DNA of 24,000 bases, taken from assembly GCF_000316685.1 (NCBI RefSeq), contig NC_019680.1, forward strand, positions 2,837,407-2,861,406, read 5' to 3'. The translations under genes and the position numbers were made by a program. Origin of the DNA: Synechococcus sp. PCC 6312 (GTDB lineage: Bacteria > Cyanobacteriota > Cyanobacteriia > Thermosynechococcales > Thermosynechococcaceae). Positions 21 to 19,570 of the stretch are shown here, piece after piece. The first letter of the stretch is position 1; every line of letters starts with the position of its first letter. Under the pieces are notes generated by a model. The model ran no database searches. It was not told the origin of the DNA and saw nothing but the letters and a program-made list of their open reading frames with translations.

Positions 21-263
21 ATTAAGAATCATTCCTATTTGCAACTATTCAGAATTTTCTCAATAGGTTTTTTGTATTTGCCTAGAAATTTTGAATTAAA
101 TGCAGGAAAAATTCTTAATAAGCTGTTGTTTTTCTGTTACGAGGACTAGTCTTTATAGGTCTCACCCCTAGAACAGAATTATTGCAACTATAGCATAGTT
201 ACTGTCCATCTTTTTCCTGTATTTTAATTTCGATTTGTTTCCTGGTAGGTACTTTCCCCTGTC

Positions 264-500
264 TTACCCTTGCTTGACATGGCCTGGTTTCCAGCATTCG
301 CCTTCTGTGACGCAGTATTTTTGTCCTTCGGATTCTATCCAGATCAGGTCATTTTTGACTTTTGTAATTTCTCCGGTAACTATCTTTGTTCCGGTGATTT
401 TGTGCCAACCGTCTTTTACTGATTCGCTTGGAACTTCTGCTGATACGATTTCGCCAACTTCCATATTTTTTCCTTTAACTCCACTCTGGCTGAAAGACAT
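264..500 (-). CDS. Small hypothetical protein (78 aa; 66 aa if started at the ATG at 464)
   Basis: ORF track. The internal ATG at 464 is preceded by AAAGGA (SD-like) at about 7 nt; the ATG at 500 has no SD. No family recognised. Confidence 0.6.
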   Translation of the reverse strand: MSFSQSGVKGKNMEVGEIVSAEVPSESVKDGWHKITGTKIVTGEITKVKNDLIWIESEGQKYCVTEGECWKPGHVKQG

Positions 501-512
501 TATCTGTTTTTT

Positions 513-836
513 GGAGTGAGGGATGAGCGCAGCGAGGCCTGAACGGATTTATCGAAGCGCGAGCATAGCGAAGCCTGAGTCTGGCGGGAATGAGGGATGA
601 GCGTAGCGAGGCATGAATGGGAGCATGGCCGGAATGGGAGCCGAAGGCGGGAATGGAGAGGGGTGGGTGCCGGGGCGTGGGCGGCATTGATGGGAGTGAG
701 GGATGAGCGACAGCGAGGCCTGAACGGATTATCGAAGCGCGAGCATAGCGAAGCCTGAGTCTGGCGGGAATGAGGGATGAGCGTAGCGAGGCATGAATGG
801 GGAGAGGGGCGGGTGCCGGGGCGTGGGCGGCATTAC
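513..836. repeat. Tandem duplication (period about 180 bp) of a G/A-rich element (M5); each copy ends in an M3 hairpin
   Basis: GGAGTGAGGGATGAGCG...GGCGGGAATGAGGGATGAGCGTAGCGAGGCATGAATGG occurs at 513 and again at 693. Copy 1 carries about 37 extra nt (about 625-660) made of two more GAGC..GGAATGG subunits. Both copies end in GGGTGCCGGGGCGTGGGCGGCATT. Confidence 0.9.
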
Positions 837-1006
837 TTTCTTTTCTGATTCGATGCTTAATTATCCCTGGCCTGGAAGTTGTCGAGCGAGCGTAGCGAAG
901 TGAGGGGGGGGCGCAGGGGGTACTCCCCCCGATTTTCCATGTCTGTCATCCCAACGAGTCCCTGGCCTGGAACAGATGTGTTGTTCTAGGGGTGGATGAT
1001 TGCCAT

Positions 1007-1030
1007 AAAAAAAACCAGTCTTTCGACTGG
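1007..1030 (-). terminator. Intrinsic terminator (minus strand)
   Basis: Hairpin CCAGTC-TTTC-GACTGG (1015-1030), preceded on the plus strand by an A8 run, which is a U-run after the hairpin on the minus strand. Confidence 0.7.
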
Positions 1031-1040
1031 CTGTTGGTTG

Positions 1041-1160
1041 TTATTGGCGTGTTTCGCACTCTGAGTCTGTGAGACAGTCTGCTGTGAACAGAGGCATTGG
1101 CCCGCCGAGTGAGTGAATGCAAAGAGCTATGAATAGGAGGGTGAGATATTGCTTGAGCAT
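1041..1160 (-). CDS. Candidate 39-aa small secreted/membrane peptide (below the ORF-track cutoff)
   Basis: Hand translation: MLKQYLTLLFIALCIHSLGGPMPLFTADCLTDSECETRQ*. It has a hydrophobic N-terminus. It sits between an M1 element and a terminator, exactly like the other cassettes, and it has the same leader (ACGGCGTAGTGTTTGG) seen upstream of the 5391 and 3985 starts. Confidence 0.4.
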   Translation of the reverse strand: MLKQYLTLLFIALCIHSLGGPMPLFTADCLTDSECETRQ

Positions 1161-1174
1161 TTTGGCTACCAAAC

Positions 1175-1398
1175 ACTACGCCGTAGTTAGACACCCCAAC
1201 GGAACGCCGTTAGACCGTGTTATCGCTCCCCGACCTTGGGAGGGGCTGACGACCAGGGGGAGGAAGGGAAGCGATTAGATGGACTTACGGTGCAGCCATA
1301 GCTGAGGGCTTGCCCCTTGAAGTGGGGTGTATCATCCTACGGAGTGTTTCGGTGCGGTCGTTATTGGGACGGGTGGGGTGCCGGGGCCAGGGCGGCGT
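1175..1398. repeat. Structured repeat block A: M1 (about 1175-1335) + M3 hairpin (1371-1398)
   Basis: Outer helix ACACCCC (1191-1197) / GGGGTGT (1324-1330). Conserved junctions CGGAAC and CTTGAAG. The M3 hairpin is GTGCCG-GGGCCAGGG-CGGCGT. Confidence 0.8.
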
Positions 1399-1417
1399 TT
1401 TCATGGCCTGGAGACAA

Positions 1418-1446
1418 TAAAAAAAGCCCCAGATTTCTCCAGGGCT
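1418..1446 (-). terminator. Intrinsic terminator (minus strand) after the 1455-1664 gene
   Basis: AGCCC...GGGCT stem with an A-run on the plus strand (U-run on minus), followed on minus by ATTGTCTCC, a variant of the junction motif. Confidence 0.55.
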
Positions 1447-1454
1447 GTTTGAAT

Positions 1455-1664
1455 TTATGCGTCATGGATTAAAACGATTGATTCTGTGATTTGTTCTGCC
1501 AGATACCCTCGCCGCCGAAGAAACTTAGCGAATGCTTCTGTTTCCTCAGGGTCGCAGTAATAGGCTTCGCAACCGTATTTCTCCGAGTAGAAAGGCTTAA
1601 AGATCGGATTTTTGCTTTCAGAACGGAGAGCTTCAGTCGTGTCCATAAAAGAAACCTCATACAC
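1455..1664 (-). CDS. Small hypothetical protein (69 aa from GTG 1664; 63 aa from ATG 1646)
   Basis: ORF track. Protein-like composition (…KPFYSEKYGCEAYYCDPEETEAFAKFLRRRGYLAEQI…). Terminator immediately downstream and an M1 element immediately upstream. Confidence 0.65.
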   Translation of the reverse strand: MYEVSFMDTTEALRSESKNPIFKPFYSEKYGCEAYYCDPEETEAFAKFLRRRGYLAEQITESIVLIHDA

Positions 1665-1677
1665 ATTACTCTTTTTT

Positions 1678-1988
1678 GGAGAGCAGCCACGGAATGCACT
1701 TAGGGAGACTTGCCGCCGAGAGATTCAGGGATTAGTGAAGGGGTGTTCTGGCGGCTTAGTCGAACTTAGTGGACAGCGGAAGCTGAGGGCTTGTCCCTTG
1801 AAGTGAGATGCTACCTTGGCGAATCATGTGTGCGGGGGGCAGGGGGTGGCGAATCCCCTTAGCACAACTGGAGCAGCCCCTTGGGGGGCGAATAGCGAGG
1901 GGGGACAAAAGCCCGTCCGATTAGGACGGTTCAGTTCTGACATCGTGGACGGTGGCAGCGGGTGGGGTGCCGGGGTGTGGGCGGCATT
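1678..1988. repeat. Structured repeat block B: M1 (about 1678-1818) + M2 (about 1830-1955) + M3 (1959-1988)
   Basis: M2 (…CAGGGGG…CCCCTTAGCACAACTGGAGCAGCCCCTTGGGGGGCGAATAGCGAGGGGGG…AGCCCGTCCGATTAGGACGGTTCAGTTCTGACA) is near-identical to 4190-4322 and 5565-5668. The M3 consensus is GGGTGGGGTGCCGGGGTGTGGGCGGCAT. Confidence 0.85.
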
Positions 1989-2144
1989 TATGTCCTGAGT
2001 AAGAGAGTGTGGGTCATGGTCTGAGTAGTTGCATCGGAAGGAACTGCATATCCATTTTTGTTCTGTCCCGATTGGCATCACGGCACAGCCGCAGAGTGGG
2101 CAGTTCTTGAATTTGTCCAGGTTTTCTAACTTCTTTTTTTTCAT
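1824..2144 (-). CDS. Small zinc-ribbon-like protein whose ORF runs on into repeat block B
   Basis: N-terminal MKKKKLENLDKFKNCPLCGC…CSSFRC gives a CxxC…CxxxxC arrangement. From about residue 50 the reading frame is the reverse complement of M3/M2 (…AAHTPAPHPLPP…), so the true C-terminus is uncertain. Confidence 0.55.
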   Translation of the reverse strand: MKKKKLENLDKFKNCPLCGCAVMPIGTEQKWICSSFRCNYSDHDPHSLTQDINAAHTPAPHPLPPSTMSELNRPNRTGFCPPSLFAPQGAAPVVLRGFATPCPPHT

Positions 2145-2195
2145 TCTTCTTGTTTTGCTATAACAACACTTTTTCTGAAGGACTTTTTTATTTTG

Positions 2196-2292
2196 GGTAG
2201 GAAAGGGAGTTTGAGGGAAGGGAACAGGCCCTCATTGGTGGGTGGGGTGCCGGGGTTGCAAACGAGAGAAGGAGTGCAGCAAGGGCGGCATT
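2196..2292. repeat. M2b + M3 (loop-expanded variant)
   Basis: TAGGAAAGGGAGTTTGAGGGAAGGGAACAGGCCC…TGGTGGGTGGGGTGCCGGGG parallels 3396-3450. The GTGCCG/CGGCAT stem encloses an inner hairpin TTGCA…TGCAG. Confidence 0.75.
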
Positions 2293-2370
2293 CGGGAGAG
2301 AGAGAATTGAACGCACTTGTGTTGGCGAAGTCGAATATCTTGGCCTGTGGTACCAATAATTTCTTTTTGT

Positions 2371-2571
2371 TTATTCAGATTCAACATCGAAATAGGGTTC
2401 ACATCCGGCAGCAATTAAGACTTGATTACCTACCCTGGACATTGACTTGCTTCTAGGGCTATTTGTTATCCCCCATGCCTTAGCACAATCAGCAATGTCA
2501 TCAAATGTTATTCCTCCACCTCCTTCTGATTCCCAGAGTTTCTTGAAGGTATTTTTTGTGTAAACTGTCAT
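2371..2571 (-). CDS. Small hypothetical protein (66 aa)
   Basis: ORF track. Its start overlaps the stop of the upstream 34-aa ORF (TCATGA), which suggests translational coupling. Confidence 0.6.
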   Translation of the reverse strand: MTVYTKNTFKKLWESEGGGGITFDDIADCAKAWGITNSPRSKSMSRVGNQVLIAAGCEPYFDVESE

Positions 2572-2672
2572 GATGTTTTTCCTCTAATGGATTGGTTGTC
2601 TTCGTAGTTGTGATAGTTATCAGCGTAATAGTCGCCTTCATCCCAAGCGGGTTGATTGGGCTGTTCGTCCAT
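2568..2672 (-). CDS. Candidate 34-aa acidic peptide (below the ORF-track cutoff)
   Basis: Hand translation: MDEQPNQPAWDEGDYYADNYHNYEDNQSIRGKTS*. AAAGGA SD 8 nt upstream. The stop overlaps the next start, and the GTCCTGCGG junction motif lies upstream. Confidence 0.4.
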   Translation of the reverse strand: MDEQPNQPAWDEGDYYADNYHNYEDNQSIRGKTS

Positions 2673-2737
2673 TATTTTTATCCTTTAGCGACACTATTCC
2701 GCAGGACATTTTGATTTCCTTGACCTGGGAAGGGGAC

Positions 2738-3106
2738 TTAGACCCGCACAACCCGAACTGGCTTGCCAGCCGCCTGAGCCTCGCTGACCATATTGGCTGT
2801 GCCACGGCTCACGCCGTCCCAGAACACAACGGCTGCGTCACACGCCTGAGCCATGCTCCGGTTCCGAACCGGCCCAGCCGAGCGACCGAAAGCAGCCCAC
2901 TCAGCCGGGAACCGCTCAACCGCAAAACCACGCTCTTGAGCGTAACGCTCGCCAAGTGCATCTGCGCCACGACAGGCACCGGAAAGCACAACCACCTCAA
3001 AGCCCTGAGCCAACTTGTTGGCAAGCAAGGCATCGAGCCGCTCACAGAGCAAACCAAAATCACTGAACTGCCGAGAGCCAGCGATAACGACACGAAAGGG
3101 AGCCAT
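2738..3106 (-). CDS. SLOG-superfamily / DUF2493-like Rossmann-fold protein (122 aa)
   Basis: VVIAGSRQF…VVLSGACRGADALGERYAQE…PAEW…GRSAGPVRNRSMA…AVVFWDGVSRGT resembles the DUF2493/YspA-type SLOG pattern recalled from plasmid and phage proteins. Strong SD GGAGG upstream. Confidence 0.8.
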   Translation of the reverse strand: MAPFRVVIAGSRQFSDFGLLCERLDALLANKLAQGFEVVVLSGACRGADALGERYAQERGFAVERFPAEWAAFGRSAGPVRNRSMAQACDAAVVFWDGVSRGTANMVSEAQAAGKPVRVVRV

Positions 3107-3139
3107 GCGACCTCCAAAGAAAAAAAGAACAGCGTCTCT

Positions 3140-3660
3140 TTGACGACCCCCGGAACGCCGTTACCAAAACTTACCGCTCCCCGACCGACCCTGGAGGGAG
3201 GGGCTGAAGGTGCTTGCACCGTAAGGAAAGCGGCTAGTTTTGGTTACGGGGCAGTGCCATGCACTGAGGCTTTACGCCTTGAAGTGGGGTCGTATCCTGG
3301 AGGCTGCTGAGGTTCCCCTCCTGGGAGGGGTTAGGGGTGGGAGCGTGAACGGAGGTGAACACCACTTCACGGGGGTGCGGGGGGGCCTCCCCGCTATAGG
3401 AAAGGGGGTTTGGGGGAACGGAACGGGCCCCCAATGGGTGGGGTGCCGGGGCTGCGGCGATAAGGCTTTTGGTTTGTGAGAGAGGTTTATTCCGCAGGGG
3501 CGGCATTTGAGAGGGTTTGGGATAGGTTGCACTGGCCTGGGAAAGGCGGCCGGAAACGGCGACAGATTTTGATTTGGTGGGTAATGTTTATTCCGTTTCC
3601 GGCCGCCCGTTAATCTTGGCGTAGTCTGATAGGGGAACGGTACGGTGAGGTTTTGTAATT
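3140..3660. repeat. Structured repeat block C: M1 (3140-3295) + unique G-rich hairpins + M2b (3396-3436) + M3 long form (3436-3506) + M4 (3545-3607)
   Basis: M1 outer helix ACGACCCC (3142-3149) / GGGGTCGT (3285-3292). M4 is a 15-bp perfect inverted repeat, GGCGGCCGGAAACGG (3545-3559) / CCGTTTCCGGCCGCC (3593-3607). The segment 3436-3672 is about 95% identical to 4346-4583. Confidence 0.85.
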
Positions 3661-3663
3661 CAC

Positions 3664-3688
3664 AAAAAAAAGCCAGCCGAAGCTGGCC
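3664..3688 (-). terminator. Intrinsic terminator (minus strand) of the 3695-3985 gene
   Basis: GCCAGC-CGAA-GCTGGC hairpin with a preceding A8 on plus (U8 after the hairpin on minus). Confidence 0.8.
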
Positions 3689-3694
3689 TATTCG

Positions 3695-3985
3695 TTACCG
3701 TTGTTGCTGCTGTTCTACTTTTTGATTTTCTTGAATATTTTCTGTAATTGCCACAAAACCGCAGCTAATTGTTAGAACTAGAACTGGCCAAACCATTTTT
3801 TCTACTGTTTTGGCGTAGCTGTATCGCCTAGCCTTAAAATTTTTGCCCATTTCTACTTTTAATCTAACTTTTCTAAATTTACGATCTAATTCATTCCATT
3901 CTTTAACTAGACCGTTCCAACTGAAATCAAATACTTTAACGGTACGTTTGCCGTTTTTATCGTCACGAATCATTGCTTTACGCAT
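3695..3985 (-). CDS. Small hypothetical protein with a C-terminal TM segment (96 aa)
   Basis: ORF track. Hydrophobic stretch MVWPVLVLTISCGFVAI. Flanked by M1 upstream and a terminator downstream. Confidence 0.7.
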   Translation of the reverse strand: MRKAMIRDDKNGKRTVKVFDFSWNGLVKEWNELDRKFRKVRLKVEMGKNFKARRYSYAKTVEKMVWPVLVLTISCGFVAITENIQENQKVEQQQQR

Positions 3986-4002
3986 TGTAATTTACCAACA
4001 CA

Positions 4003-4575
4003 ACGGCGCTTGGATAGCACAGCACGGAACCGTCCTAGATTTTCTTATCGCTCCCCGACCCTTGGGAGGGGCTGACGTTGCTTGCAACGGAAGGAAAGCG
4101 ATTAGAAAATGTTGGTCGGCACTGCCCTAGCAGTGAGGGAGGGTGAGCCTCGAACCCGACCTTGAAGGCTGTGCTACCTTGCAAAAGCCTGTGTCGGGGG
4201 GGCAGGGGGAAGTCACCCCCTTAGCACAACTGGAGCAGCCCCTTGGGGGGCGAATAGCGAGGGGGGAGAAAAGCCCGTCCGTTAGCGTTAGCGTGCCGTA
4301 AGGCAATTAGGACGATTCAGTTCTGACACTGTGGGCAGTGGCAGCGGGTGGGGTGCCGGGGCTGCGGCGATAAGGCTTGTGGTTTGCGAGAGATGTTTAT
4401 TCCGCAGGGGCGGCATTTGAGAGGGTTTGGGATAGGTTGCACTGGCCTGGGAAAGGCGGCCGGAAACGGCGACAGATTTTGATTTAGCGGGTAATGTTTA
4501 TTCCGTTTCCGGCCGCCCGTTAATCTTGGCGTAGTCTGGCACGGGAATGGGACGTTGTGAGGTTTTGCAACTCAC
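4003..4575. repeat. Structured repeat block D: M1 (4003-4185) + M2 (4190-4322) + M3 long form (4346-4417) + M4 (4455-4517)
   Basis: M1 outer helix TAGCACAGC (4015-4023) / GCTGTGCTA (4168-4176). M1+M2 are near-identical to block E except for a swapped apical hairpin. M3+M4 are near-identical to block C. Confidence 0.85.
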
Positions 4576-4603
4576 AAAAAAAAGACCGGCCTTTCGGCCA
4601 GTC
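4576..4603 (-). terminator. Intrinsic terminator (minus strand) of the 4612-4773 ORF
   Basis: GACCGGCC-TTTC-GGCCAGTC hairpin (one mismatch) preceded on plus by A8. Confidence 0.75.
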
Positions 4604-4611
4604 CCTTTTCT

Positions 4612-4773
4612 TTAGTCTTGACTTATAGACTTAGCCTCTTCTTTAGTTAGATAGATTCCGAAGTCTCCTTCTACTTCGACCCAGACTCCACCTTCTTCTA
4701 AAGCCGCCGCCTCGTCTTTGGTTAGATAGATTCCGAAATATTCATCTATCTGAAACCATTCTGTATATGCCAT
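4612..4773 (-). CDS. Candidate 53-aa acidic protein with an internal duplicated motif (below the ORF-track cutoff)
   Basis: Hand translation: MAYTEWFQIDEYFGIYLTKDEAAALEEGGVWVEVEGDFGIYLTKEEAKSISQD*. The motif (Y/D)FGIYLTK(D/E)EA occurs twice. A terminator follows directly. Confidence 0.5.
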   Translation of the reverse strand: MAYTEWFQIDEYFGIYLTKDEAAALEEGGVWVEVEGDFGIYLTKEEAKSISQD

Positions 4774-4779
4774 CTGGTA

Positions 4780-4990
4780 TTACCAAACTCTACGCCGGGG
4801 TCCTACAGGGGAGCCGACTGGTCAAGGGGTAAAGTGGAGGGCTGCGGAATAAATTTGATGTTACTAAGACTTGCCGCCCCTGTCTCCGCTTATTGCAGAT
4901 CACTCTTTGTTCTCAGGCGGCTTAGTCGCAGTTAATCAAGTTTTATGCCGTAAAGCCTGGAACGTACCTTGACCACCCTCCATCACAACG
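4780..4990. repeat. Divergent M1-like structured leader (block F)
   Basis: Shares the leader ACCAAACTCTACGCC with block A, and the helix GACTTGCCGCC…GGCGGCTTAGTCG with M1 of block B. Also contains GGTCAAGG/CCTTGACC and TGGAGGG/CCCTCCA complementarities in crossing order. Confidence 0.45.
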
Positions 4991-5187
4991 AAGGATATTT
5001 ATATTCCCTGTATAATAGAAAGGCAGAGTTGCCACCCAACGCGAACAACCACCCATCCGGCGACCCTTTACTGTACTTAGCGAAAAATGTTTAGAAAGGT
5101 AATTTCTTTGGGCGGGCCTGGGAGAACGAAACAGACGTTCACCCTTACATATCTTCCCTATTTGATATGCCGAAGTCGGAAGAGGAT

Positions 5188-5212
5188 AAAAAAACGGGCG
5201 GCAGAGCCGCCC
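5188..5212 (-). terminator. Intrinsic terminator (minus strand) of the 5221-5391 gene
   Basis: GGGCGGC-AGA-GCCGCCC hairpin preceded on plus by A7 (U-run on minus). Confidence 0.8.
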
Positions 5213-7484: not shown

Positions 7485-7568
7485 GGTTTTCCTTGGTGTT
7501 TCTGTAACGTTTTCTAGGGGAGGTTTGTAAATGCAAAGTTTTCCGGGCATAAGAGAACTTTACATTTT

Positions 7569-10578: not shown

Positions 10579-10625
10579 TTTATTTTTGGGTTTTAGAGCA
10601 TTTTTCCGAAGGACTTTTTGGGTTT

Positions 10626-10658
10626 TGTTCTAGGGGTGAGAGTGCTACCCCTAGAACA
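10626..10658. repeat. Perfect 12-bp-arm palindrome TGTTCTAGGGGT-N9-ACCCCTAGAACA
   Basis: Read directly from the sequence. Lies between the 10423-10578 and 10665-10997 ORFs. Confidence 0.9.
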
Positions 10659-10664
10659 GTTTGG

Positions 10665-10997
10665 TTAACTGGTGTAACGTTCAAATTCTTCAGCAATATC
10701 TTCAGCTTCTAGCTGAGATTCAATGATCTGGACTTTTTTGTTTGTGATCAGGACGTACATTCCGAGAGAGTCTTGGGGCAGTTTCAGCACTTCGATGACA
10801 TTGTGGGTGATCTGGCCAATCCAGTAGTAGTTGTCTGATTTTTCCCAGATTTGTGACAGGAAGTGTTTTTCGGCTTCATCTGGGTTGTCGAAGATGTTGG
10901 TTATCACTCCCTCGATCAGTGTTAGCCATTGCCCCTGGATTTCAGGATGGGTGCTTCTGGGGGAGGCTTGGCAGATTCCGGTATAGTTTTTGTCCAT
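10665..10997 (-). CDS. Hypothetical protein (110 aa)
   Basis: ORF track. AAGGA SD upstream. Bracketed by the two GTTCTAGGGGT palindromes. Confidence 0.75.
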   Translation of the reverse strand: MDKNYTGICQASPRSTHPEIQGQWLTLIEGVITNIFDNPDEAEKHFLSQIWEKSDNYYWIGQITHNVIEVLKLPQDSLGMYVLITNKKVQIIESQLEAEDIAEEFERYTS

Positions 10998-11040
10998 TTT
11001 TTGTTCCTTACGACTGCCAATCCGAAGGACTTTTAGTTGT

Positions 11041-11074
11041 TTGTTCTAGGGGTGGGCCATTACCCCTAGAACAA
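11041..11074. repeat. Perfect 13-bp-arm palindrome TTGTTCTAGGGGT-N8-ACCCCTAGAACAA
   Basis: Read directly from the sequence. Followed on the plus strand by CTTTTTT. Confidence 0.9.
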
Positions 11075-11086: not shown

Positions 11087-11686
11087 TCAGCGGTTCATTC
11101 TACGGAAGTCCCAAGGTTTTATCTGGTCTGACTTCCAGACACCAACGCCTTCTTTTCGGGCTTCTTGTTCGGCTTGATCAACTTTGGCAAAACTAGGGCA
11201 GTTATTAGCGAACTTGCGGTAAGCGTAGGCCATGCCTTTGCGGGTCATGGTTTCTTGGACAAGGGTATTGCCCGTCCAGACTTCAGCGACCTTACGGCCA
11301 TAGCGGTCAGTGTTGGTAATGCGAAGGTCAACACGGTAGTCAGCTTTTTTTAAGATATTGCGGAGTGTATTACGGGATGCTTCGCCCAAGGGTTGTTTAA
11401 GTTCTGGTGCGTCAATACAGGCGAAGCGGACTCGGATTTCTTCGTTGCCATTGGTGGCTCGGATGGTATCGCCATCATGGATAGAGCGTTGAACAACTTG
11501 CCATTCGGTTAGTCCAGTTCTGGTTTGGGTGGGTGTTCCGATTTCGTTGACAACGGCTTCACGTTCGGATGGACTAATCATACGTCCACTAGTTGTTCTT
11601 GGATTGAGGGCTTCAATCTCGGACATTGGGACAGCTTGCGATACGCATCCGGTTAGGAAAATTGCTAGGAGTGGCCAATAACGCAT
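11087..11686 (-). CDS. Secreted thermonuclease (staphylococcal nuclease/SNc fold) lipoprotein, 199 aa
   Basis: Lipobox LTGC in MRYWPLLAIFLTGCVSQ. SNase core …DGDTIRA…IRVRFACIDAPE…GEAS…RYGRKVAEVW…. Confidence 0.88.
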   Translation of the reverse strand: MRYWPLLAIFLTGCVSQAVPMSEIEALNPRTTSGRMISPSEREAVVNEIGTPTQTRTGLTEWQVVQRSIHDGDTIRATNGNEEIRVRFACIDAPELKQPLGEASRNTLRNILKKADYRVDLRITNTDRYGRKVAEVWTGNTLVQETMTRKGMAYAYRKFANNCPSFAKVDQAEQEARKEGVGVWKSDQIKPWDFRRMNR

Positions 11687-13880: not shown

Positions 13881-14627
13881 ATGCTTAAGACTCTATCCCT
13901 TTCACTTTTCTGGGTTTTTCTTCCATTGGTGGCATTAGCCCAACCGACTAAGTTTATGAATCCCACGACTAATCGGTCTGAGGTGAATATTACTGGATTC
14001 AGTCCAGGGCAGGAAGTGACTGTTGAGCTTCAGGGCGTAACCAAGACGGTTCGTGGTTCTTGTTCGGTTGGCAGTGACATTTACGCTTTACTTTCTAGCG
14101 ATGGGATTGGTGAGTTTCAGGAGCCTTTTAATGCCTATCTTGCGGCTACTGGCAATCAACCGGAGATTCGTCGTGGTGGTGTGAACCTTGGCAATCTGCT
14201 TGATGTTGAACCTATTTATAACGGTCGGTGTTCCTTTGTGAATGGGGCCAGGGTTTTGATGGGTGTTTATGGAACTGAGCGGATGACTGTTATTCCTCAG
14301 TCACAGATCAATGGTGTTGATCTACTGATGTTTACACCTGTTGACCAGAATGATAATCCGGTTCCTGGTAGTAAGCGGCAGCTTTGGGTTCGTGTACCGA
14401 ATTGGGAGCTAACTCCGATTCAAATTGTTGGTGGTTTTCTGGAGCGGAAGTACAAGGCGAATAACTGTGGCATTGTCCGATTTGCTGAAACAGCTACATC
14501 ACCTTTGCCTGAGACATTCAAGCTTGCTTCTACGGTGTATCAGGTTTCCAACTTATCCACTGCTTACCCGCCCAAGTGCTATAAGACGGGCGAGACTTCT
14601 TACACCCTGTTTGTTCCTGCTAACTGA
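13881..14627 (+). CDS. Secreted protein, paralog 4 (248 aa from ATG 13881)
   Basis: Signal peptide MLKTLSLSLFWVFLPLVALA|QP. The N- and C-terminal thirds are near-identical to paralog 3 and the centre is divergent. The track start at 13830 spans the terminator. Confidence 0.88.
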   Translation: MLKTLSLSLFWVFLPLVALAQPTKFMNPTTNRSEVNITGFSPGQEVTVELQGVTKTVRGSCSVGSDIYALLSSDGIGEFQEPFNAYLAATGNQPEIRRGGVNLGNLLDVEPIYNGRCSFVNGARVLMGVYGTERMTVIPQSQINGVDLLMFTPVDQNDNPVPGSKRQLWVRVPNWELTPIQIVGGFLERKYKANNCGIVRFAETATSPLPETFKLASTVYQVSNLSTAYPPKCYKTGETSYTLFVPAN

Positions 14628-14642
14628 TTCCTACTGTTATTG

Positions 14643-14667
14643 GGGAGGATTAAACCCTCCCTTTTTC
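14643..14667 (+). terminator. Intrinsic terminator (plus strand)
   Basis: GGGAGG-ATTAAAC-CCTCCC followed by T5. Confidence 0.75.
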
Positions 14668-14784
14668 TATGCGTTACTTTATCTTGCACATGGCGATTGG
14701 ATTTGTTCTAGGGGCATTGCCGTTGGGATTGTTAACGGGGTCACATATTCCAGACCCAGATATATTTTTCAAGGTTCAGAAGGA

Positions 14785-15665: not shown

Positions 15666-15728
15666 CAATAAATCTCGAAGTGACTGATTATATAGTATTC
15701 CTTTTTCGATTGATTGGACTGTTCTATT

Positions 15729-15760
15729 GGGTGGGGTGCCGGGGCTTAAAAAGGGGCGGC
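15729..15760. repeat. Isolated M3-type repeat far from the left-hand array
   Basis: GGGTGGGGTGCCGGGGCTTAAAAAGGGGCGGC shares the 16-nt 5' core with all M3 copies. Confidence 0.75.
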
Positions 15761-16338: not shown

Positions 16339-17583
16339 TTATAGTGCTTCTTCAGCCGGTCGCAGTTGAGCATCTGGGTTCAGTTGATTTTCACCAGTGG
16401 TAAGGATTTTGATTTGCTCTAAGTTTTTACGCATAGCGGCCCAGGCTTTGAAGGCATTGCTGGTGTATTGGTCGGCTTGGTTGACACGGCTGAGGTATTG
16501 ATCAGTTGACCCTGCGCCGTAGCGATAGGTAACTTCGTAGAGCTTGAGCCGTGTTTGCTCACGGCGAGCGAGTTCCTGGGTTGCTTGAAACTCTCGTTTG
16601 AACTGGTCGAAAGCAAGAACATCGAGCGTCACCTTATCTCGGATACGACCGGCCAGTTCTGCTCGGTTGCGTTGCAGTTCAGCGACTTTGATTTGGAGGT
16701 CGCCAATGGCGAGGCTGCGGGTAGCAGCGGCTTGTGAGCCACCAAATAAGTTAGTGATGAGTGGGATACCGATGAGGCTGAGAGCTTCCGCAATCCCTGT
16801 GCCGGTAAACAGACGGCCAATCTTATCGAAGGGCGATTCAGCGGTTGGCCCTGATGTGGTGACGGTTGTTTGTCGTCCGGTGAATGGGTCGGTGACGACC
16901 TGGGTGGTACCGAGTCTGGCACTTGGCCCAGCATCAAAGCTGAGATAACTCTGAAGTGCAGGGGTAAAGACCTCTAAGTTAACGAGCTTCTGGTTATTGC
17001 TCTGTGCTTCTTGGATGCGAGTATTGGCTTCTTCAATCCGGGCATCTACTTCCTTCAGGATTGGAGAGCGAGCAATCGCTAACTCTTGCAGCCGCTTTAC
17101 ACATTCCTGGGTACTGTCCAGGCAAGGAAGGCCGCCGAGTATGCCCTGCCATAGGTCGTTATTGAACTGAAACCGAAGCACTTCCTCCATGCTGGCAGCG
17201 GTTTGTCCGCCCTGAAATGGATTTTCAGGCAGTCGTGGCGCAGCGACTGGCGTTCTGGCTGGTATGGTTCCGCCACTTGGCATGGTTGTTGTACTTGGCC
17301 TCACACCACTTGGGACGGGAATGTTAACCGGCCGTGTGCTTGGTTGGGCTGGTCTGGTTGTTGACCCTGGACTGGTTGGGGTGGGGGGTGGGGATTCTGG
17401 CTCATCAAGGGTGGGTGGTGCGACTTCGCCACCACCGCCATCATCATCGGTTGTGATGACTGCTGGTTCTTCAGCTTCAGCGGGTTGGCTATTGGGCTGT
17501 GCCTTGGATGTCAAGGGTAAGCTCAACACGAATGTTAGTATCAGACTGCTCAAGCCAACGGATACGAGTGACTTTACCTGCAT
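16339..17583 (-). CDS. Secreted TolC/OEP-like coiled-coil protein with a Pro/Thr-rich linker (414 aa from ATG 17583)
   Basis: Signal peptide MQVKSLVSVGLSSLILTFVLSLPLTSKA|QP. Two OEP-like helical repeats (…ARSPILKEVDARIEEANTRIQEAQ… and …GAGSTDQYLSRVNQADQYTSNAFKAW…). The family assignment is by eye and tentative. Confidence 0.7.
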   Translation of the reverse strand: MQVKSLVSVGLSSLILTFVLSLPLTSKAQPNSQPAEAEEPAVITTDDDGGGGEVAPPTLDEPESPPPTPTSPGSTTRPAQPSTRPVNIPVPSGVRPSTTTMPSGGTIPARTPVAAPRLPENPFQGGQTAASMEEVLRFQFNNDLWQGILGGLPCLDSTQECVKRLQELAIARSPILKEVDARIEEANTRIQEAQSNNQKLVNLEVFTPALQSYLSFDAGPSARLGTTQVVTDPFTGRQTTVTTSGPTAESPFDKIGRLFTGTGIAEALSLIGIPLITNLFGGSQAAATRSLAIGDLQIKVAELQRNRAELAGRIRDKVTLDVLAFDQFKREFQATQELARREQTRLKLYEVTYRYGAGSTDQYLSRVNQADQYTSNAFKAWAAMRKNLEQIKILTTGENQLNPDAQLRPAEEAL

Positions 17584-18439
17584 AGGGACTCCTGACAGTG
17601 GATAGGGATTGTAATTGACTTTCGATCTGGTCTTTCTGGGTTTGCAGTTGGGCAAGTTGGAACGTCTGTTCCTGAACCGCACGGTCTGCATCTATTTGGG
17701 ATTGTTGGGATTGGGCTTGGAGCTTGGCCAGTTCTAACTGGTGCTGGTACTCGGTGTATTGGCGTTGCTGTTGCGCTCTGACTAACTTAGCGTTGGCCAT
17801 ACTGACCGCAGCGACTTTGTTGTTGACCATTTCCTTGGCAATTTCGACCTGTCGCTGCTCATGCTCTAAGACTGGTGGTGGAACTTCGCCTCCCATTGTT
17901 TGTAGAACGCCCATTTTCCGTTGTTGCTGGTTAAGAGCTTCCTGGGCTTGGTTTAGTTCGAGTTGCGCTCTTTGAACATCTGCTTGCTCTGATAGGTAGT
18001 CGGGGGATGGTAGTTGCCGGATTGTCATGGGTTGGGGTCGGTTTACCTGTCGGGCTTGCATCCGGTTAATTTGGACGGCCAGTTGCTGCTTCCGGTAGGT
18101 GAGTACCTCCTTGGCCTTGGCCCGATCAGCGAGGATTTGATTTCGTTGGATCGTGTCGCCCTGCCGCACCTTGAGGTCGCTTGGGTCAGTGATGGAGAGT
18201 TGGATTTTGAACCGCTTTGGGTTCTCGGTTCGTGTTCCCTGTGGTTCCGTTCCTGGGTCTATTGGTTCCGTTGTGTCTGTCGGGGGTTCGTCCATATCTT
18301 CATCTGCTGATTGAGCGATGGAGATATTAGGGATGATGATCGTATGGCTCATCACGAATAGGGTGGCCGAGATTGCACCGATGGCAACTAAGCCATTCAC
18401 AATTTGACCGAGGGTAATTTTGGCAATGAACTTTAGCAT
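17489..18439 (-). CDS. HlyD-like membrane-fusion / periplasmic adaptor protein (316 aa)
   Basis: N-terminal TM segment. Lipoyl-like half-motifs LKVRQGDTIQRNQILA and SPYAGKVTRI flank a long Gln-rich coiled coil. Confidence 0.8.
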   Translation of the reverse strand: MLKFIAKITLGQIVNGLVAIGAISATLFVMSHTIIIPNISIAQSADEDMDEPPTDTTEPIDPGTEPQGTRTENPKRFKIQLSITDPSDLKVRQGDTIQRNQILADRAKAKEVLTYRKQQLAVQINRMQARQVNRPQPMTIRQLPSPDYLSEQADVQRAQLELNQAQEALNQQQRKMGVLQTMGGEVPPPVLEHEQRQVEIAKEMVNNKVAAVSMANAKLVRAQQQRQYTEYQHQLELAKLQAQSQQSQIDADRAVQEQTFQLAQLQTQKDQIESQLQSLSTVRSPYAGKVTRIRWLEQSDTNIRVELTLDIQGTAQ

Positions 18440-18442
18440 GGT

Positions 18443-19570
18443 TTACTCTGCCAATGGTAAGAGAGTGGGTTCGATTGGGATAACGTCATGGGAATGTTGC
18501 TCTGCCCGTTGGTAGTAAGGAATAATGTCGGTCTGTTTCGCATCATTCCCAAAGCGGACAAGGGCTTGCAGGGGCTTGAGGGCTGAGACTCTCGTAGCGG
18601 CAAAGCGAAACTTTTTGGCTACCTTCTCAACCTCGACCTGATCCACAGGCAAGACAATCTTGGTGGCTGTATTACTGAGAACGTCTGGGCTAAGGTGACG
18701 CTCCGACTGACTAGCTACGACAAGATTCAGGCCGTACTTACGCCCGTCACAGACAATCCGATCCAGGGCAGGAGACTTACTGAGTTCCTTGGCTTCATCA
18801 ATGAAGATGAATGTTCTAGGGGTAGCAGCTTCACCATAGAGGCGATGGTTATCCATCAGTTGCTTGGCCAGACTTTCGGCGGCAATCGCCCCGATTTCTG
18901 GGGGTAGTTTCTGCATATCTACCCGAATGAGTGGATGGTTAAATGGCATATTAGTCCGATTGAAAATGCCATAAGTGAAGGTAGCCGCTAACTTTAGCTT
19001 CAGCTTCTGCGACTCTTTGCAACCATCCCTGCAGCGTTGCTCCAGTTCGTTTTGGACATGGCTGAAGTTGGGTGGTTCATTCCGCCAGGTTTCGACACTT
19101 TTGATTCCGAATCGGGCATAGAGTTCCCCTAGAACATCAAGGATTAGACCTTCCTGGTTTGGGCCAATCTGTAGGTTACGTTTCAGGATTTGACCGACCG
19201 TAATAGCTTGGATTTTAGGGCCGCCGCCTTCCGGGTCAAGGTTGAGCATCAGTGGGTTAATGCCGTACTCACTGTTGGCATGGAGCGGGATATGTTTCTC
19301 ATGGGGTAGGTACTGGTCGCCATGAAAATCAACAATGATGATTTGGCATTCTTGCTTTTTGAAAAGCTCCCAAGCGATTGCTTTGAGCGTCTGCGTTTTG
19401 CCACTGCCACTGGCTCCAATAATTGCAACATGGCCATTGGGTAAGTCGTTGTAGTTCCAGTGGGTGTTTGTACCCAAATGGATGCCATTGCTATTGAGGG
19501 TTGTCACTGATGATGTTGACGTTTTTTGAAAGGGGACTAAGCGTGGGCTTGGCAAAGTACGGGGGGGCAT
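18443..19570 (-). CDS. HerA/FtsK-superfamily (DUF87-like) P-loop ATPase (375 aa)
   Basis: Walker A GASGSGKT. Walker B FIFIDEAKEL. …GRKYGLNLVVASQ… is typical of HerA/DUF87 ATPases. No TM segment. Confidence 0.85.
   Translation of the reverse strand: MPPRTLPSPRLVPFQKTSTSSVTTLNSNGIHLGTNTHWNYNDLPNGHVAIIGASGSGKTQTLKAIAWELFKKQECQIIIVDFHGDQYLPHEKHIPLHANSEYGINPLMLNLDPEGGGPKIQAITVGQILKRNLQIGPNQEGLILDVLGELYARFGIKSVETWRNEPPNFSHVQNELEQRCRDGCKESQKLKLKLAATFTYGIFNRTNMPFNHPLIRVDMQKLPPEIGAIAAESLAKQLMDNHRLYGEAATPRTFIFIDEAKELSKSPALDRIVCDGRKYGLNLVVASQSERHLSPDVLSNTATKIVLPVDQVEVEKVAKKFRFAATRVSALKPLQALVRFGNDAKQTDIIPYYQRAEQHSHDVIPIEPTLLPLAE

What the first reader, a model, noticed from the sequence alone, without database searches (positions are those of the whole stretch)
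165..19135. Over-represented 10-mer GTTCTAGGGG: two perfect palindromes bracketing one ORF, plus solitary half-sites
GTTCTAGGGG occurs at 983, 10627, 11043, 14705 and 18812. Its complement CCCCTAGAAC occurs at 165, 10648, 11063 and 19126. A given 10-mer is expected far less than once in 24 kb on both strands.

At 10626-10658 and 11041-11074 the two orientations form perfect 12-13-bp-arm palindromes. These flank the 110-aa ORF 10665-10997 on both sides. In other words, a cassette is bounded by a right arm and a left arm, and a full palindrome is recreated at each junction.

The half-sites at 165 (right-arm orientation) and 983 (left-arm orientation) bracket the 264-500 ORF plus the M5/M3 duplication in the same way.

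Two copies lie inside the HerA-like ATPase gene in opposite orientations. Neither palindrome is followed by a U-run on the gene (minus) strand, so they are not ordinary terminators. They are candidates for a recombinase or repressor operator, or a genome-wide iterated palindrome.
Basis: seen in the sequence. Interest (0 to 1): 0.65.

Follow-up and report, generated by a model that had tools for sequence, protein, structure and literature searches.

The report
Private DNA word of cyanobacterial mobile elements
The repeated 10-letter DNA word is real, and the same word or a close variant marks a whole family of cyanobacterial plasmids and integrated elements, kept even inside genes by codon choice, so it is most likely a protein recognition site private to that family rather than a recombination cassette border.

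Summary
GTTCTAGGGG occurs 9 times where 0.07 is expected, and the real unit is TGTTCTAGGGG(T). Two perfect hairpins flank an orphan 110-aa ORF.

The window is an integrated element, very probably in Synechococcus sp. PCC 6312. It carries a gene module conserved on cyanobacterial plasmids and ICEs: wHTH, AAA_22, YdjM, DUF87/HerA-like ATPase, HlyD-like, TolC-like and SNase.

The same 10-mer is enriched in four other copies of this module that share only 35-65% protein identity, and in two of them it is confined to the module. Some sites sit at homologous codons. In these loci 6 of 9 VLG tripeptides are encoded GTT-CTA-GGG. The two sites in the window's ATPase gene are codon-embedded, not insertions.

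Two Nostocales plasmids with this module carry a related word, TTCTTAGAGGA, 20 and 27 times. Co-resident plasmids carry it 0 and 1 times. Arrays of the word also lie inside a Dcm-like gene on these plasmids.

So this is a DNA word under selection, private to an element family, and probably a protein-binding site. Whether it serves regulation, DNA transfer or segregation, or methylation is unresolved. The cassette/recombination reading is not supported. A host-wide word is unlikely but could not be tested directly.

The parts
164..175 (-). Solitary 12-mer TGTTCTAGGGGT in an intergenic region. It is followed by TGAGA, as is the + strand arm of palindrome B.
   Evidence: (I8)
982..993 (+). Solitary 12-mer TGTTCTAGGGGT. 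On the minus strand it lies about 15 nt after an intrinsic-terminator-like hairpin plus T8.
7510..7521 (+). Near-copy TTTTCTAGGGGA with the core TTTCTAGGGG (one mismatch to the 10-mer). It lies about 50 nt past the stop codon of the SprT-like gene.
10626..10658 (.). Palindrome B. Two inverted 12-mers (10626-10637 on +, 10647-10658 on -) with a 9-nt loop. It starts 6 nt after the stop of the 110-aa ORF and ends about 50 nt before the next ATG on the minus strand.
11041..11074 (.). Palindrome A. Two inverted 12-mers (11042-11053 on +, 11062-11073 on -) with an 8-nt loop. It lies 13 nt after the SNase stop and 44 nt before the ATG of the 110-aa ORF. On the + strand a T-run follows it.
10606..10614 (-). 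GTCCTTCGG box, 12 nt downstream of palindrome B on the minus strand. The same box follows three terminator hairpins at 8234, 8460 and 8613.
11022..11030 (-). GTCCTTCGG box, 11 nt downstream of palindrome A on the minus strand.
14704..14715 (+). Solitary site TGTTCTAGGGGC in the gap between convergent genes. It lies 40 nt past a + strand terminator-like hairpin at 14642-14662.
18812..18823 (+). Intragenic 12-mer, antisense within the DUF87 gene. It encodes T250-P-R-T253 (aCC CCT AGA ACa), and PRT is conserved in homologues. L091 carries the word at the same position.
19125..19136 (-). Intragenic site TGTTCTAGGGGA, sense within the DUF87 gene. It encodes V146-L-G-E149 (GTT CTA GGG GAA). There is no insertion or deletion relative to homologues.
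10665..10997 (-). 110-aa ORF bracketed by the two palindromes. It is an orphan with no Pfam or PHROG hit.
11087..11686 (-). SNase (thermonuclease-like) gene, the last conserved gene of the module.
16339..17691 (-). TolC/OEP-like gene of the module.
17489..18439 (-). HlyD-like (membrane-fusion-type) gene of the module.
18443..19570 (-). DUF87 / HerA-FtsK-TrwB-like ATPase gene. It holds two copies of the word.
19573..20610 (-). YdjM-family membrane metal-dependent hydrolase gene.
21065..22024 (-). AAA_22 ATPase gene.
22585..22926 (-). Small winged-helix-like protein, the first gene of the module. The homologous ORF sits in the same place in L091 and L095. It is a candidate DNA binder, untested.
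23051..23098 (+). tRNA/tmRNA-like 3' fragment (T-arm plus acceptor strand), the probable attachment-site end of the integrated element.

Best explanation
GTTCTAGGGG (in this element TGTTCTAGGGGT) is a cis-acting DNA word private to one family of cyanobacterial mobile elements. Selection on the DNA sequence itself maintains it.

The family is built round a conserved module: wHTH, hypothetical protein, AAA_22, YdjM, DUF87/HerA-like ATPase, HlyD-like, TolC-like and SNase. The window holds an integrated copy of this module, very probably in the Synechococcus sp. PCC 6312 chromosome.

The functional unit is the single asymmetric 10-12-mer read as duplex DNA, most likely by a sequence-specific protein encoded by the element family. 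A hairpin stem formed by two inverted copies presents the same duplex as a solitary copy. That would explain why perfect palindromes with variable loops coexist with solitary half-sites in both orientations.

The two palindromes in the window are paired copies placed in the short spacers between co-directional genes. There they probably act as operator or roadblock/insulator sites, and incidentally as stable hairpins at mRNA 3' ends. The two copies in the ATPase gene are sites written into codons.

Shown:
- the enrichment;
- recurrence of the word in diverged homologous modules;
- confinement to the module or to one plasmid;
- positional homology of some sites and word-specific codon choice;
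- a second allele of the word, TTCTTAGAGGA, in Nostocales plasmids.

Inferred:
- that a protein reads the word;
- which protein it is (candidates: the small wHTH at the head of the module, the LexA-DBD-like wHTH, or the C-domain of the Dcm-like protein whose gene carries arrays of the word);
- the downstream effect. I rank global repression/insulation first at about 0.35, a transfer or segregation tag second at about 0.25, and a methylation-linked HIP-like word third at about 0.15.
For: 1. Enrichment. The window has 9 exact copies against 0.07 expected, and there is no tail of degenerate copies.

2. The same 10-mer recurs in other copies of the module.
- L075: 5 copies in 7.8 kb, with module proteins 35-52% identical to the window's.
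- L090 (Aliterella atlantica): 7 copies of the 10-mer and 9 of TTCTAGGGGA, all between 6.0 and 12.4 kb, which is the module; none in the remaining 15 kb.
- L091/L092: 9 copies, all between 7.5 and 15.3 kb, exactly the stretch homologous to window 22953-11087; none in 13 kb of flanks.
- L093: the variant GTTCTGGGG, only in the module.

3. Sites are embedded in codons.
- The alignment of DUF87 proteins shows no insertion or deletion at either window site.
- Sites are positionally homologous across lineages: AAA column 114, YdjM column 145, and the DUF87 PRT site.
- In the loci with the word, 6 of 9 VLG tripeptides are GTT-CTA-GGG although CTA is only 10-18% of Leu codons. In module copies without the G-type word the figure is 0 of 7.
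- All four stop-free reading frames of the word are used: VLG, SSRG, PLE and PRT.

4. A second allele exists and co-varies.
- TTCTTAGAGGA occurs 20 times on the Tolypothrix PCC 7910 plasmid with this module (78.7 kb) and 0 times in 50 kb of the co-resident plasmid.
- It occurs 27 times in 50 kb of Nostoc pANSO36C and once in 50 kb of the co-resident pANSO36B.
- At AAA column 173, Tolypothrix TTC TTA GAG GAA aligns with Aliterella TTT CTA GGG GAT.
- The Dcm-like 'X' gene on each replicon carries that replicon's own allele.

5. Intergenic bias. Seven of 9 window copies are intergenic. In pANSO36C 12 of 27 are intergenic against 18% non-coding sequence, and 8 of those lie 4-34 nt upstream of a start codon, always in the same orientation.

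6. The window is foreign to its host. It has 0 copies of CAGGCCTG, whereas about 8.9 would be expected from the 0.37 per kb reported for PCC 6312 (PMC5861425). It ends near a tRNA/tmRNA-like fragment.
Against: - No binding protein has been identified, and nothing here shows binding.
- Many sites lie inside genes and have been kept there for a long time. That is unusual for operators and fits a tag read by a translocase, or a HIP-like word, equally well.
- Orientation in the window is mixed (5 on +, 4 on -). Paired copies occur head-to-head and tail-to-tail with spacers of 5-34 nt, which argues against a fixed dimer geometry.
- Several copies of the same module show no enriched word: Gloeocapsa L018, Microcystis L083, Chroococcidiopsis TS-821 L094 and L095. 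The word is therefore not obligatory for the module.
- The frequency of the word in the rest of the host chromosome could not be measured.
- In the window no copy lies at the head of the module (22.9-23.0 kb).
Confidence: 0.5

Rival explanations
1. Address tag for DNA movement. The word is read by the module's FtsK/HerA/TrwB-like ATPase (DUF87) or a partner protein, so that the element's own DNA is recognised for transfer, export or segregation. This would work in the way KOPS serve FtsK, SRS serve SpoIIIE, and TRS/clt repeats serve Streptomyces TraB.
For: - The module couples a DUF87/TrwB_AAD_bind ATPase to HlyD-like and TolC-like proteins.
- The sites are exact, dispersed, often intragenic and element-private.
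- Seven tandem 45-bp hairpin copies of the word lie between an integrase gene and AAA/T4CP genes in L029/L049, an arrangement like clt.
- ArdA and ssb neighbourhoods in L090 and pANSO36C suggest transferable elements.
Against: - There is no strand polarity: 8 runs against 10.9 expected in Tolypothrix, and mixed orientation in the window and L091.
- No sequence-reading (gamma-like) domain was demonstrated in DUF87.
- The regular placement 4-34 nt upstream of start codons in pANSO36C looks related to transcription.
- Some copies of the module lack any word.
Confidence: 0.22
2. HIP1-like word driven by methylation or repair. The word is over-represented because a plasmid-borne Dcm-like methyltransferase (the 'X' protein), or a mismatch-repair bias linked to it, targets part of the word. 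This would be a private analogue of HIP1 and its CGATCG/GATC methylases.
For: - Arrays of the word sit inside the Dcm-like X gene on these replicons, each array carrying the replicon's own allele.
- Like HIP1, the word is written into codons and conserved at homologous positions (PMC5861425).
- In Nostocales plasmids the word is followed by CGATCG within 25 nt at 11 of 27 and 7 of 20 sites, against 2-4% background.
- CTAGG is the deamination product of a CCAGG Dcm site (established knowledge of Dcm and very-short-patch repair).
Against: - A 10-12-nt asymmetric specificity is long for a C5 methyltransferase.
- The X proteins of Aliterella and Chlorogloea give no methylase HMM hit; only the Allocoleopsis version does.
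- No X homologue lies in the window.
- In L090, L091 and L093 the word is confined to the module, not spread over the replicon.
Confidence: 0.12
3. Host-wide genomic word. GTTCTAGGGG is frequent across the whole PCC 6312 chromosome, for example as an uptake-signal-like or HIP-like word, and has no island-specific meaning.
For: - The pattern resembles DUS/USS: an exact 10-12-mer, inverted pairs just downstream of genes, and single copies in coding sequence.
- The published survey of PCC 6312 covered only palindromic octamers, so it would have missed this word.
- The host chromosome could not be scanned.
Against: - In the only testable hosts the word is replicon-specific: 20 against 0 copies, and 27 against 1.
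- In L090 and L091 it stops at the borders of the module.
- 20 kb of chromosome from a related Thermosynechococcaceae genome has none.
- The same word occurs in the same module in unrelated HIP1-rich hosts.
- The window lacks the host's own iterated palindrome.
Confidence: 0.07
4. RNA hairpins only. The two palindromes are mRNA 3'-end, processing or termination hairpins, and the solitary copies are fortuitous or decayed.
For: - The hairpins are stable, at -21 to -31 kcal/mol with z-scores of -2.7 to -4.2.
- They begin 6 and 13 nt after stop codons.
- Palindrome A has a T-run on the + strand.
- The GTCCTTCGG box that follows both palindromes also follows three canonical terminators.
Against: - There is no U-run on the transcribed (minus) strand.
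- Five solitary exact copies cannot arise by chance.
- Only the arms are conserved, not the loops or the spacing.
- Intragenic copies occur in both orientations in homologous modules.
Confidence: 0.06
5. Recombination cassette borders or a miniature mobile palindrome. The palindromes are junction sites of a site-specific recombinase (integron-like), or copies of a REP/MITE/SDR-like element, and the half-sites are its remnants.
For: - The palindromes bracket an orphan ORF.
- Sites 165 and 983 have the matching outward geometry.
- Site 165 shares TGAGA with palindrome B, and site 18813 shares 21 of 24 nt with one arm plus the loop of palindrome B (I4, I8).
Against: - No recombinase or transposase other than IscB was found among the scanned ORFs. 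The IscB element ends about 290 nt away from palindrome B.
- The hairpins are perfect and only 33-34 bp long, unlike attC, and GTTCTAG does not fit GTTRRRY.
- There is no insertion or deletion at the intragenic sites.
- Part of the flank similarity is explained by the extended consensus GGGGTRR.
- Sites occupy homologous codons across lineages that share 35-65% protein identity.
Confidence: 0.04

Closest known systems
Stoperators of cluster A mycobacteriophages (for example L5), bound by the immunity repressor
   Same: An exact asymmetric 12-14-mer is scattered 20-30 times over one mobile element. It lies mostly in short intergenic gaps at gene ends, is private to the element lineage, and has allelic variants that co-vary between lineages.
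   Different: Stoperators share one orientation relative to transcription and are rarely written into codons. Here orientation is mixed, many copies are intragenic, and no repressor has been identified.
KorB (OB) and KorA (OA) operator networks of IncP plasmids
   Same: A plasmid-private motif is repeated about 7-12 times round the backbone, including positions away from promoters, and is read by a plasmid-encoded global regulator.
   Different: OB and OA are palindromic units bound by dimers, and KorB is a ParB homologue. Here the unit is asymmetric, no ParB gene is in the window, and module copies that do have ParAB (Gloeocapsa) lack the word.
TRS/clt repeats read by the FtsK-like TraB of Streptomyces plasmids; KOPS with FtsK; SRS with SpoIIIE
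   Same: A short exact word specific to a replicon is read by an FtsK/HerA-superfamily DNA pump. The cis site can lie inside coding sequence, and tandem arrays occur next to transfer genes (as in L029).
   Different: Those words are 8-mers, and KOPS and SRS are strongly polarised. No polarity is seen here and no reader domain is shown in DUF87.
DNA uptake sequences (Neisseria DUS, Haemophilus USS)
   Same: An exact 10-12-mer occurs as inverted pairs forming hairpins just downstream of genes, together with solitary copies inside genes.
   Different: DUS and USS are genome-wide at about 1 per kb and are read by competence proteins. This word is confined to one element family and is absent from co-resident plasmids.
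HIP1 (GCGATCGC) and its variants, including CAGGCCTG in PCC 6312
   Same: The word is hyper-abundant, exact, tolerated in all reading frames, conserved at homologous positions, and linked to DNA methyltransferase genes.
   Different: HIP1 is a palindromic octamer spread over the whole genome of the host. This word is a non-palindromic 10-12-mer restricted to a mobile-element family, and it coexists with HIP1 in HIP1-rich hosts.

Membership tests
Integron gene cassette / attC | An IntI-type tyrosine recombinase next to the array | tested here: not met
   No Phage_integrase hit among the 20 largest window ORFs. Smaller ORFs were not scanned.
Integron gene cassette / attC | attC architecture: 57-141 bp, an imperfect palindrome with R''/L''-L'/R' boxes (RYYYAAC ... 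GTTRRRY) and extrahelical bases | tested here: not met
   The hairpins are perfect and 33-34 bp long, with 12-13-bp arms. GTTCTAG has C where GTTRRRY needs a purine.
Integron gene cassette / attC | Cassettes vary between related arrays | tested here: inconclusive
   The 110-aa ORF has no homologue, and the only other contigs that carry it have the same layout.
REP/BIME or MITE/SDR-type miniature mobile palindrome | Copies arise by insertion, giving an insertion or deletion relative to empty sites, and lie in extragenic positions | tested here: not met
   The intragenic copies align without gaps to homologous proteins, and copies occupy homologous codons across lineages.
REP/BIME or MITE/SDR-type miniature mobile palindrome | The whole element, including loop and length, is conserved between copies | tested here: not met
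   Only the 10-12-mer arms are conserved. Loops differ and spacers range from 5 to 34 nt.
HIP1-like host genomic word | A uniform high frequency over the whole host genome | not testable with these tools
   The PCC 6312 chromosome could not be reached. In analogous cases the word is replicon- or module-specific.
HIP1-like host genomic word | A palindromic octamer | tested here: not met
   The unit is an asymmetric 10-12-mer. The host's iterated palindrome is CAGGCCTG, which is absent from the window.
DNA uptake sequence (DUS/USS type) | An exact 10-12-mer, with inverted pairs downstream of genes and solitary copies within genes | tested here: met
DNA uptake sequence (DUS/USS type) | Genome-wide distribution in the recipient species and a competence receptor that reads the word | tested here: not met
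   Distribution: 0 and 1 copies on co-resident plasmids, and none in the flanks of the module. The receptor was not tested.
Stoperator-type repressor sites | An asymmetric exact word, many copies over one element, enriched between genes | tested here: met
Stoperator-type repressor sites | A single orientation relative to transcription, and binding by the element's repressor | tested here: inconclusive
   Orientation is mixed in the window (5 on +, 4 on -). It is uniform for the 8 copies in pANSO36C that lie close to start codons. Binding cannot be tested here.
KorB/ParB-type operator or parS | A palindromic unit bound by a ParB-family protein encoded on the element | tested here: not met
   The unit is asymmetric. 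No ParB domain was found in the scanned window ORFs. The Gloeocapsa module with ParAB has no word.
KOPS/SRS/TRS translocase guide words | An FtsK/HerA-superfamily DNA pump encoded with the sites | tested here: met
   The ATPase has DUF87, TrwB_AAD_bind and weak FtsK_SpoIIIE hits and HerA/DndH-like hits.
KOPS/SRS/TRS translocase guide words | Strand polarity of the word along the replicon | tested here: not met
   The Tolypothrix plasmid has 9 copies on + and 11 on -, in 8 runs against 10.9 expected. Orientation is mixed in L091 and the window.
Intrinsic (Rho-independent) terminator | A GC-rich hairpin followed by a U-run on the transcribed strand | tested here: not met
   On the minus strand the hairpins are followed by AAACAAC... 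and AAAACCC... Only palindrome A has a T-run, and that is on the non-gene strand.

The most novel reading that the evidence does not exclude
A family of cyanobacterial plasmids and integrated elements labels its own DNA with a private 10-11-nt word, KTYYTAGRGG, which exists as two alleles: GTTCTAGGGG and TTCTTAGAGGA.

In this reading the element's own machinery reads the word. That machinery would be the FtsK/TrwB-like DUF87 pump coupled to HlyD- and TolC-like proteins, and/or the Dcm-like X protein whose gene carries arrays of the word. Reading the word would let the machinery pick out self DNA for export, transfer, segregation or protection. This would be an element-private counterpart of KOPS/TRS/DUS, and it would reveal a new DNA-handling apparatus in cyanobacteria.
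Probability: 0.2. Interest if true: 0.85.

Novelty: new variant of a known kind. Interest (0 to 1): 0.68.

Why it matters
Short iterated words in cyanobacterial DNA, HIP1 above all, have been an open puzzle for 30 years. They are now being linked to methylation and DNA uptake (PMC5861425; bioRxiv 10.64898/2026.06.24.733823).

This case offers a smaller and cleaner system:
- The word is private to one family of mobile elements.
- It has two co-varying alleles.
- It has clear on/off contrasts between co-resident plasmids.
- A short list of candidate reader proteins is encoded next to it.

That makes the question of who reads the word, and what follows, directly testable by pulldown, ChIP or DAP-seq, methylome sequencing and synonymous recoding.

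The work also draws attention to a conserved and uncharacterised plasmid/ICE module, in which a DUF87 ATPase is coupled to HlyD-like and TolC-like proteins and a nuclease. This module may be a DNA transfer or export device. It could be useful for cyanobacterial vector design, for example for plasmid compatibility, stability or transfer signals.

Tried and rejected
1. Reaching the source genome to count the word chromosome-wide.
- The palindrome scans of genome contigs, viral contigs and metagenome contigs did not return the source.
- Exact-protein look-ups returned only two short Logan contigs that lie inside the window, or nothing.
- The paralogous island in PCC 6312 (P0123) could not be fetched.

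2. IS200/IS605 end hairpin. The HEARO/omega RNA ends at 10320, about 290 nt from palindrome B, so the hairpin is outside the IscB element.

3. LexA box. TGTTCT resembles half of the cyanobacterial LexA box, but no RGTAC partner lies at the right spacing at any site (the box consensus is from my own knowledge).

4. Known RNA families. Rfam finds nothing apart from HEARO.

5. Literature. Neither word appears in any relevant paper in the library.

6. Strand polarity. It is absent.

7. Shared proteins between the window and the loci holding the arrays (L006, L009, L029). None were found beyond the module.

8. The high-GC metagenome hits with CTAG-rich hairpins (L019, L022 and others) look like an unrelated repeat family.

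9. PADLOC. There is no match to a defence system, only generic HerA/DndH similarity.

I judged structure prediction of the window wHTH to be of low value, since only 3 homologues exist.

Full report
**The observation**

GTTCTAGGGG occurs nine times in the 24-kb window, at 165(-), 983(+), 10627(+), 10648(-), 11043(+), 11063(-), 14705(+), 18813(+) and 19126(-). Dinucleotide-preserving shuffles give 0.07 copies on average and never more than one.
All nine copies read TGTTCTAGGGG, and seven read TGTTCTAGGGGT.
- The copies are all-or-none. Relaxing the 10-mer to one mismatch adds only 7511 (TTTCTAGGGG), and at three mismatches the 12-mer is at background.
- The palindromes at 10626-10658 and 11041-11074 are perfect and bracket the minus-strand ORF 10665-10997.
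- They fold stably as RNA, at -21 to -31 kcal/mol.
- No U-run follows them on the gene strand. Palindrome A does have a T-run on the + strand.
- Each palindrome is followed 11-12 nt later by GTCCTTCGG. The same box follows three ordinary terminator hairpins at 8234-8630.

**What the window is**

The genes on the minus strand from 22.9 to 11.1 kb run in this order:
- a small winged-helix-like protein;
- a hypothetical protein;
- an AAA_22 ATPase;
- two small ORFs;
- a YdjM-family hydrolase;
- a DUF87/HerA/TrwB-like ATPase;
- a HlyD-like protein;
- a TolC/OEP-like protein;
- several unknowns;
- a staphylococcal-type nuclease.

This order is conserved on many cyanobacterial plasmids and integrative elements. 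Examples are Gloeocapsa pGLO7428.01, Microcystis p1, Tolypothrix PCC 7910 plasmid 1, Nostoc pANSO36C, an Aliterella contig and several metagenome contigs.

The window's own proteins lie on a contig of 3,697,276 bp. An 84%-identical paralogue of the first gene, on a contig of the same length, is named as Synechococcus sp. PCC 6312.

PCC 6312 is HIP1-poor. Its iterated palindrome is CAGGCCTG at 0.37 per kb (PMC5861425). The window has no HIP1 and no CAGGCCTG, where about 8.9 copies would be expected. A tRNA/tmRNA-like 3' fragment lies at about 23.05-23.10 kb, and GC content falls beyond it.

I conclude that the window is an integrated mobile element, foreign in composition to its host. An IscB gene with its HEARO/omega RNA (8809-10320) is inserted in it. 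That insertion is unrelated to the palindromes.

**The word belongs to the module, not to this island alone**

The palindrome pattern is very rare in public data. It matches 14 stretches in one genome from each of 185,579 species and 63 stretches in the metagenome collection. The cyanobacterial hits fall into a few groups.

Homologous copies of the module carry the same 10-mer:
- L075 has 5 copies in 7.8 kb: one intergenic hairpin plus copies inside the AAA, YdjM and DUF87 genes.
- Aliterella L090 has 7 copies (9 of TTCTAGGGGA), all between 6.0 and 12.4 kb of a 21-kb locus, which is exactly the module.
- L091/L092 have 9 copies, all between 7.5 and 15.3 kb. That is the stretch homologous to window 22953-11087. 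There are none in 13 kb of flanks. By my own calculation, the chance of all nine falling in the module at random is about 1e-4.
- L093 has the variant GTTCTGGGG, again only in the module.

These modules share only 35-65% protein identity with the window, so synonymous positions should be saturated.

**Selection acts on the DNA sequence itself**

An alignment of DUF87 proteins shows that the two window sites are not insertions:
- Site 19126 is V146-L-G-E (GTT CTA GGG GAA).
- Site 18813 is T250-P-R-T (aCC CCT AGA ACa), next to the FIDEAKE motif.

Mapping all copies onto protein alignments shows positional homology across lineages:
- AAA column 114: L075 GTTCTAGGGG, L090 GTTTTAGGGG, L093 GTTCTGGGGG.
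- YdjM column 145: L075, L091 and L093.
- The DUF87 PRT site: the window and L091.

Codon choice points the same way. In the four loci with the G-type word, 6 of 9 VLG tripeptides in these three proteins are encoded GTT-CTA-GGG, although CTA makes up only 10-18% of leucine codons. In module copies without the G-type word the figure is 0 of 7. L093 uses GTT-CTG-GG(G/A) in 4 of 5.

All four stop-free reading frames of the word are used: VLG, SSRG, PLE and PRT.

**A second allele, private to one plasmid**

The Tolypothrix PCC 7910 plasmid that carries the module has its own word, TTCTTAGAGGA. It occurs 20 times exactly in 78.7 kb, plus 5 one-mismatch copies, in both orientations. There is no strand polarity: 8 runs against 10.9 expected. 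The co-resident plasmid has none in 50 kb.

Nostoc cf. commune pANSO36C, which has the same module, has 27 copies in 50 kb. The co-resident pANSO36B has one in 50 kb.

At AAA column 173, Tolypothrix TTC TTA GAG GAA aligns with Aliterella TTT CTA GGG GAT. The two words are therefore alleles of one site, with the consensus KTYYTAGRGG.

In pANSO36C, 12 of 27 copies are intergenic against 18% non-coding sequence. Eight of those lie 4-34 nt upstream of a start codon, always with TCCTCTAAGAA on the coding strand. They are concentrated in a run of small genes around ssb.

In both Nostocales plasmids the word is followed by CGATCG/HIP1 within 25 nt far more often than chance would give: 11 of 27 and 7 of 20 sites, against 2-4% background.

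**Other homes of the word**

On the same replicons there is a three-gene unit: a wHTH with a LexA-like DNA-binding domain, a protein of about 155 aa, and a protein I call 'X'.
- X resembles a C5 cytosine methyltransferase. The Allocoleopsis version passes the dcm HMM; the others do not.
- X ends in a conserved C-domain of about 100 aa.
- The linker of the X gene holds 2 to 7 hairpins, or single copies, of the replicon's own allele. It is GTTCTAGGGG in Aliterella, Chlorogloea, Allocoleopsis and metagenome loci, and TTCTTAGAGGA in Tolypothrix and Nostoc.

In L029/L049/L057, seven tandem 45-bp hairpin units lie between an integrase gene and AAA/T4CP genes.

The window contains no X homologue.

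**Interpretation**

The evidence shows a short DNA word under selection, private to one family of mobile elements, with co-varying alleles.

The most economical mechanism is recognition of the duplex 10-12-mer by a sequence-specific protein of the family. A hairpin stem made from two inverted copies presents the same duplex as a solitary copy. This reconciles perfect palindromes of variable loop length (5-34 nt, both head-to-head and tail-to-tail) with solitary half-sites.

For the window, I read the two palindromes as paired sites in the spacers between co-directional genes. There they would act as an operator, roadblock or insulator, and as a hairpin at the mRNA 3' end. I read the two copies in the ATPase gene as sites written into codons.

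I cannot decide between three downstream roles:
- global repression or insulation, like stoperators or KorB operators;
- a tag for DNA transfer or segregation read by the DUF87 pump, like TRS/KOPS;
- a methylation-linked word, like HIP1.

The intergenic regularity in pANSO36C favours the first. The intragenic persistence and exactness favour the second or third.

**Why the cassette reading fails**

- No recombinase was found among the scanned ORFs.
- The hairpins are not attC-like.
- The intragenic half-sites show no insertion or deletion.
- The same word fills homologous codons in distant relatives.

Site 165 and site 18813 resemble one arm plus the loop of palindrome B (I8 and I4). Part of this is explained by the extended consensus GGGGTRR, and the remainder is of marginal significance by my estimate. 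The bracketed ORF is an orphan, so variation of the cassette between genomes could not be examined.

**Limits**

- The frequency of the word in the rest of the PCC 6312 chromosome was not measurable with the collections at hand. The case against a host-wide word rests on analogous systems, on confinement to the module elsewhere, and on 20 kb of a related genome.
- Several copies of the module show no enriched word.
- No binding, methylation or transcript data exist.
- Neither word appears in any relevant paper in the library searched. As far as that library shows, the element is undescribed.

Noticed in passing
window 8809-10320 (-): An IscB gene (RRXRR plus HNH, 8809-10155) with its HEARO/omega RNA (10107-10320, 161.6 bits). 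The RNA is 90% identical to a stretch of a Chroococcidiopsis thermalis plasmid. This is an IS200/605-type guest inside the island.
   Followed up: partly
window ~23051-23098 (+): A tRNA/tmRNA-like 3' fragment (T-arm plus acceptor strand; the tmRNA 3' end matches at E=0.0017). No full tRNA gene is present, and GC content drops to 0.40 beyond it. It is probably the attachment-site end of the integrated element.
   Followed up: partly
window 1-24000: The host is very probably Synechococcus sp. PCC 6312. Its genome-wide iterated palindrome CAGGCCTG (0.37 per kb in PMC5861425) is absent from all 24 kb, where about 9 copies would be expected. A related genome (L098) has 10 copies in 20 kb.
   Followed up: yes
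window ~500-5700, plus 15726-15750 and 22458-22482: An ORF-poor, GC-rich stretch full of GGGTGGGGTGCCGGGGC-type boxes (9 copies). It contains long internal duplications: 3436-3671 with 4346-4581 at 91%, and 4099-4281 with 5472-5654 at 98%. There is no Rfam match. Its nature is unknown.
   Followed up: partly
window 8224-8651 (-): Five or six tandem units of about 77 nt. Each unit is an intrinsic-terminator-like hairpin, a T-run and (A)TTGTCCTTCGG. They lie directly downstream of IscB. The same GTCCTTCGG box follows both palindromes, and one more copy lies at 323 (+).
   Followed up: no
window 11785-14627 (+): Four unannotated + strand ORFs lie opposite in direction to the rest of the island. 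The last two (13090-13824 and 13830-14627) are paralogues, 74% identical over 258 nt, and weakly resemble an ORF at the same place in L091.
   Followed up: no
window 16339-22926 (-); L018, L084, L090, L091, L096: A conserved module couples an FtsK/HerA/TrwB-like ATPase (DUF87) and a YdjM membrane hydrolase to HlyD-like and TolC-like proteins and a nuclease. It looks like an uncharacterised envelope-spanning device on cyanobacterial plasmids and ICEs, possibly for DNA or nuclease export or for transfer.
   Followed up: partly
L018 19911-21326; also H6, H10 and P0101-P0116: The DUF87 genes of Gloeocapsa, Stanieria, Calothrix and many metagenome relatives carry an in-frame insertion of about 100 aa with a GIY-YIG nuclease domain at the same point in the protein.
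   Followed up: no
L096 (Nostoc pANSO36C) and Tolypothrix plasmid NZ_CP050441.1: The Nostocales allele TTCTTAGAGGA is followed within 25 nt by CGATCG/HIP1 at 11 of 27 and 7 of 20 sites, against 2-4% background. The spacer between them is purine-rich. This suggests a composite element.
   Followed up: partly
L029 902-1201; L066 6108-6318; L079 3384-3684: Tandem arrays of 5-7 units of 45 bp, each a GTTCTAGGGG-N11-CCCCTAGAAC hairpin. They lie either between an integrase gene and AAA/T4CP genes (L029) or inside the X gene (L066, L079).
   Followed up: partly
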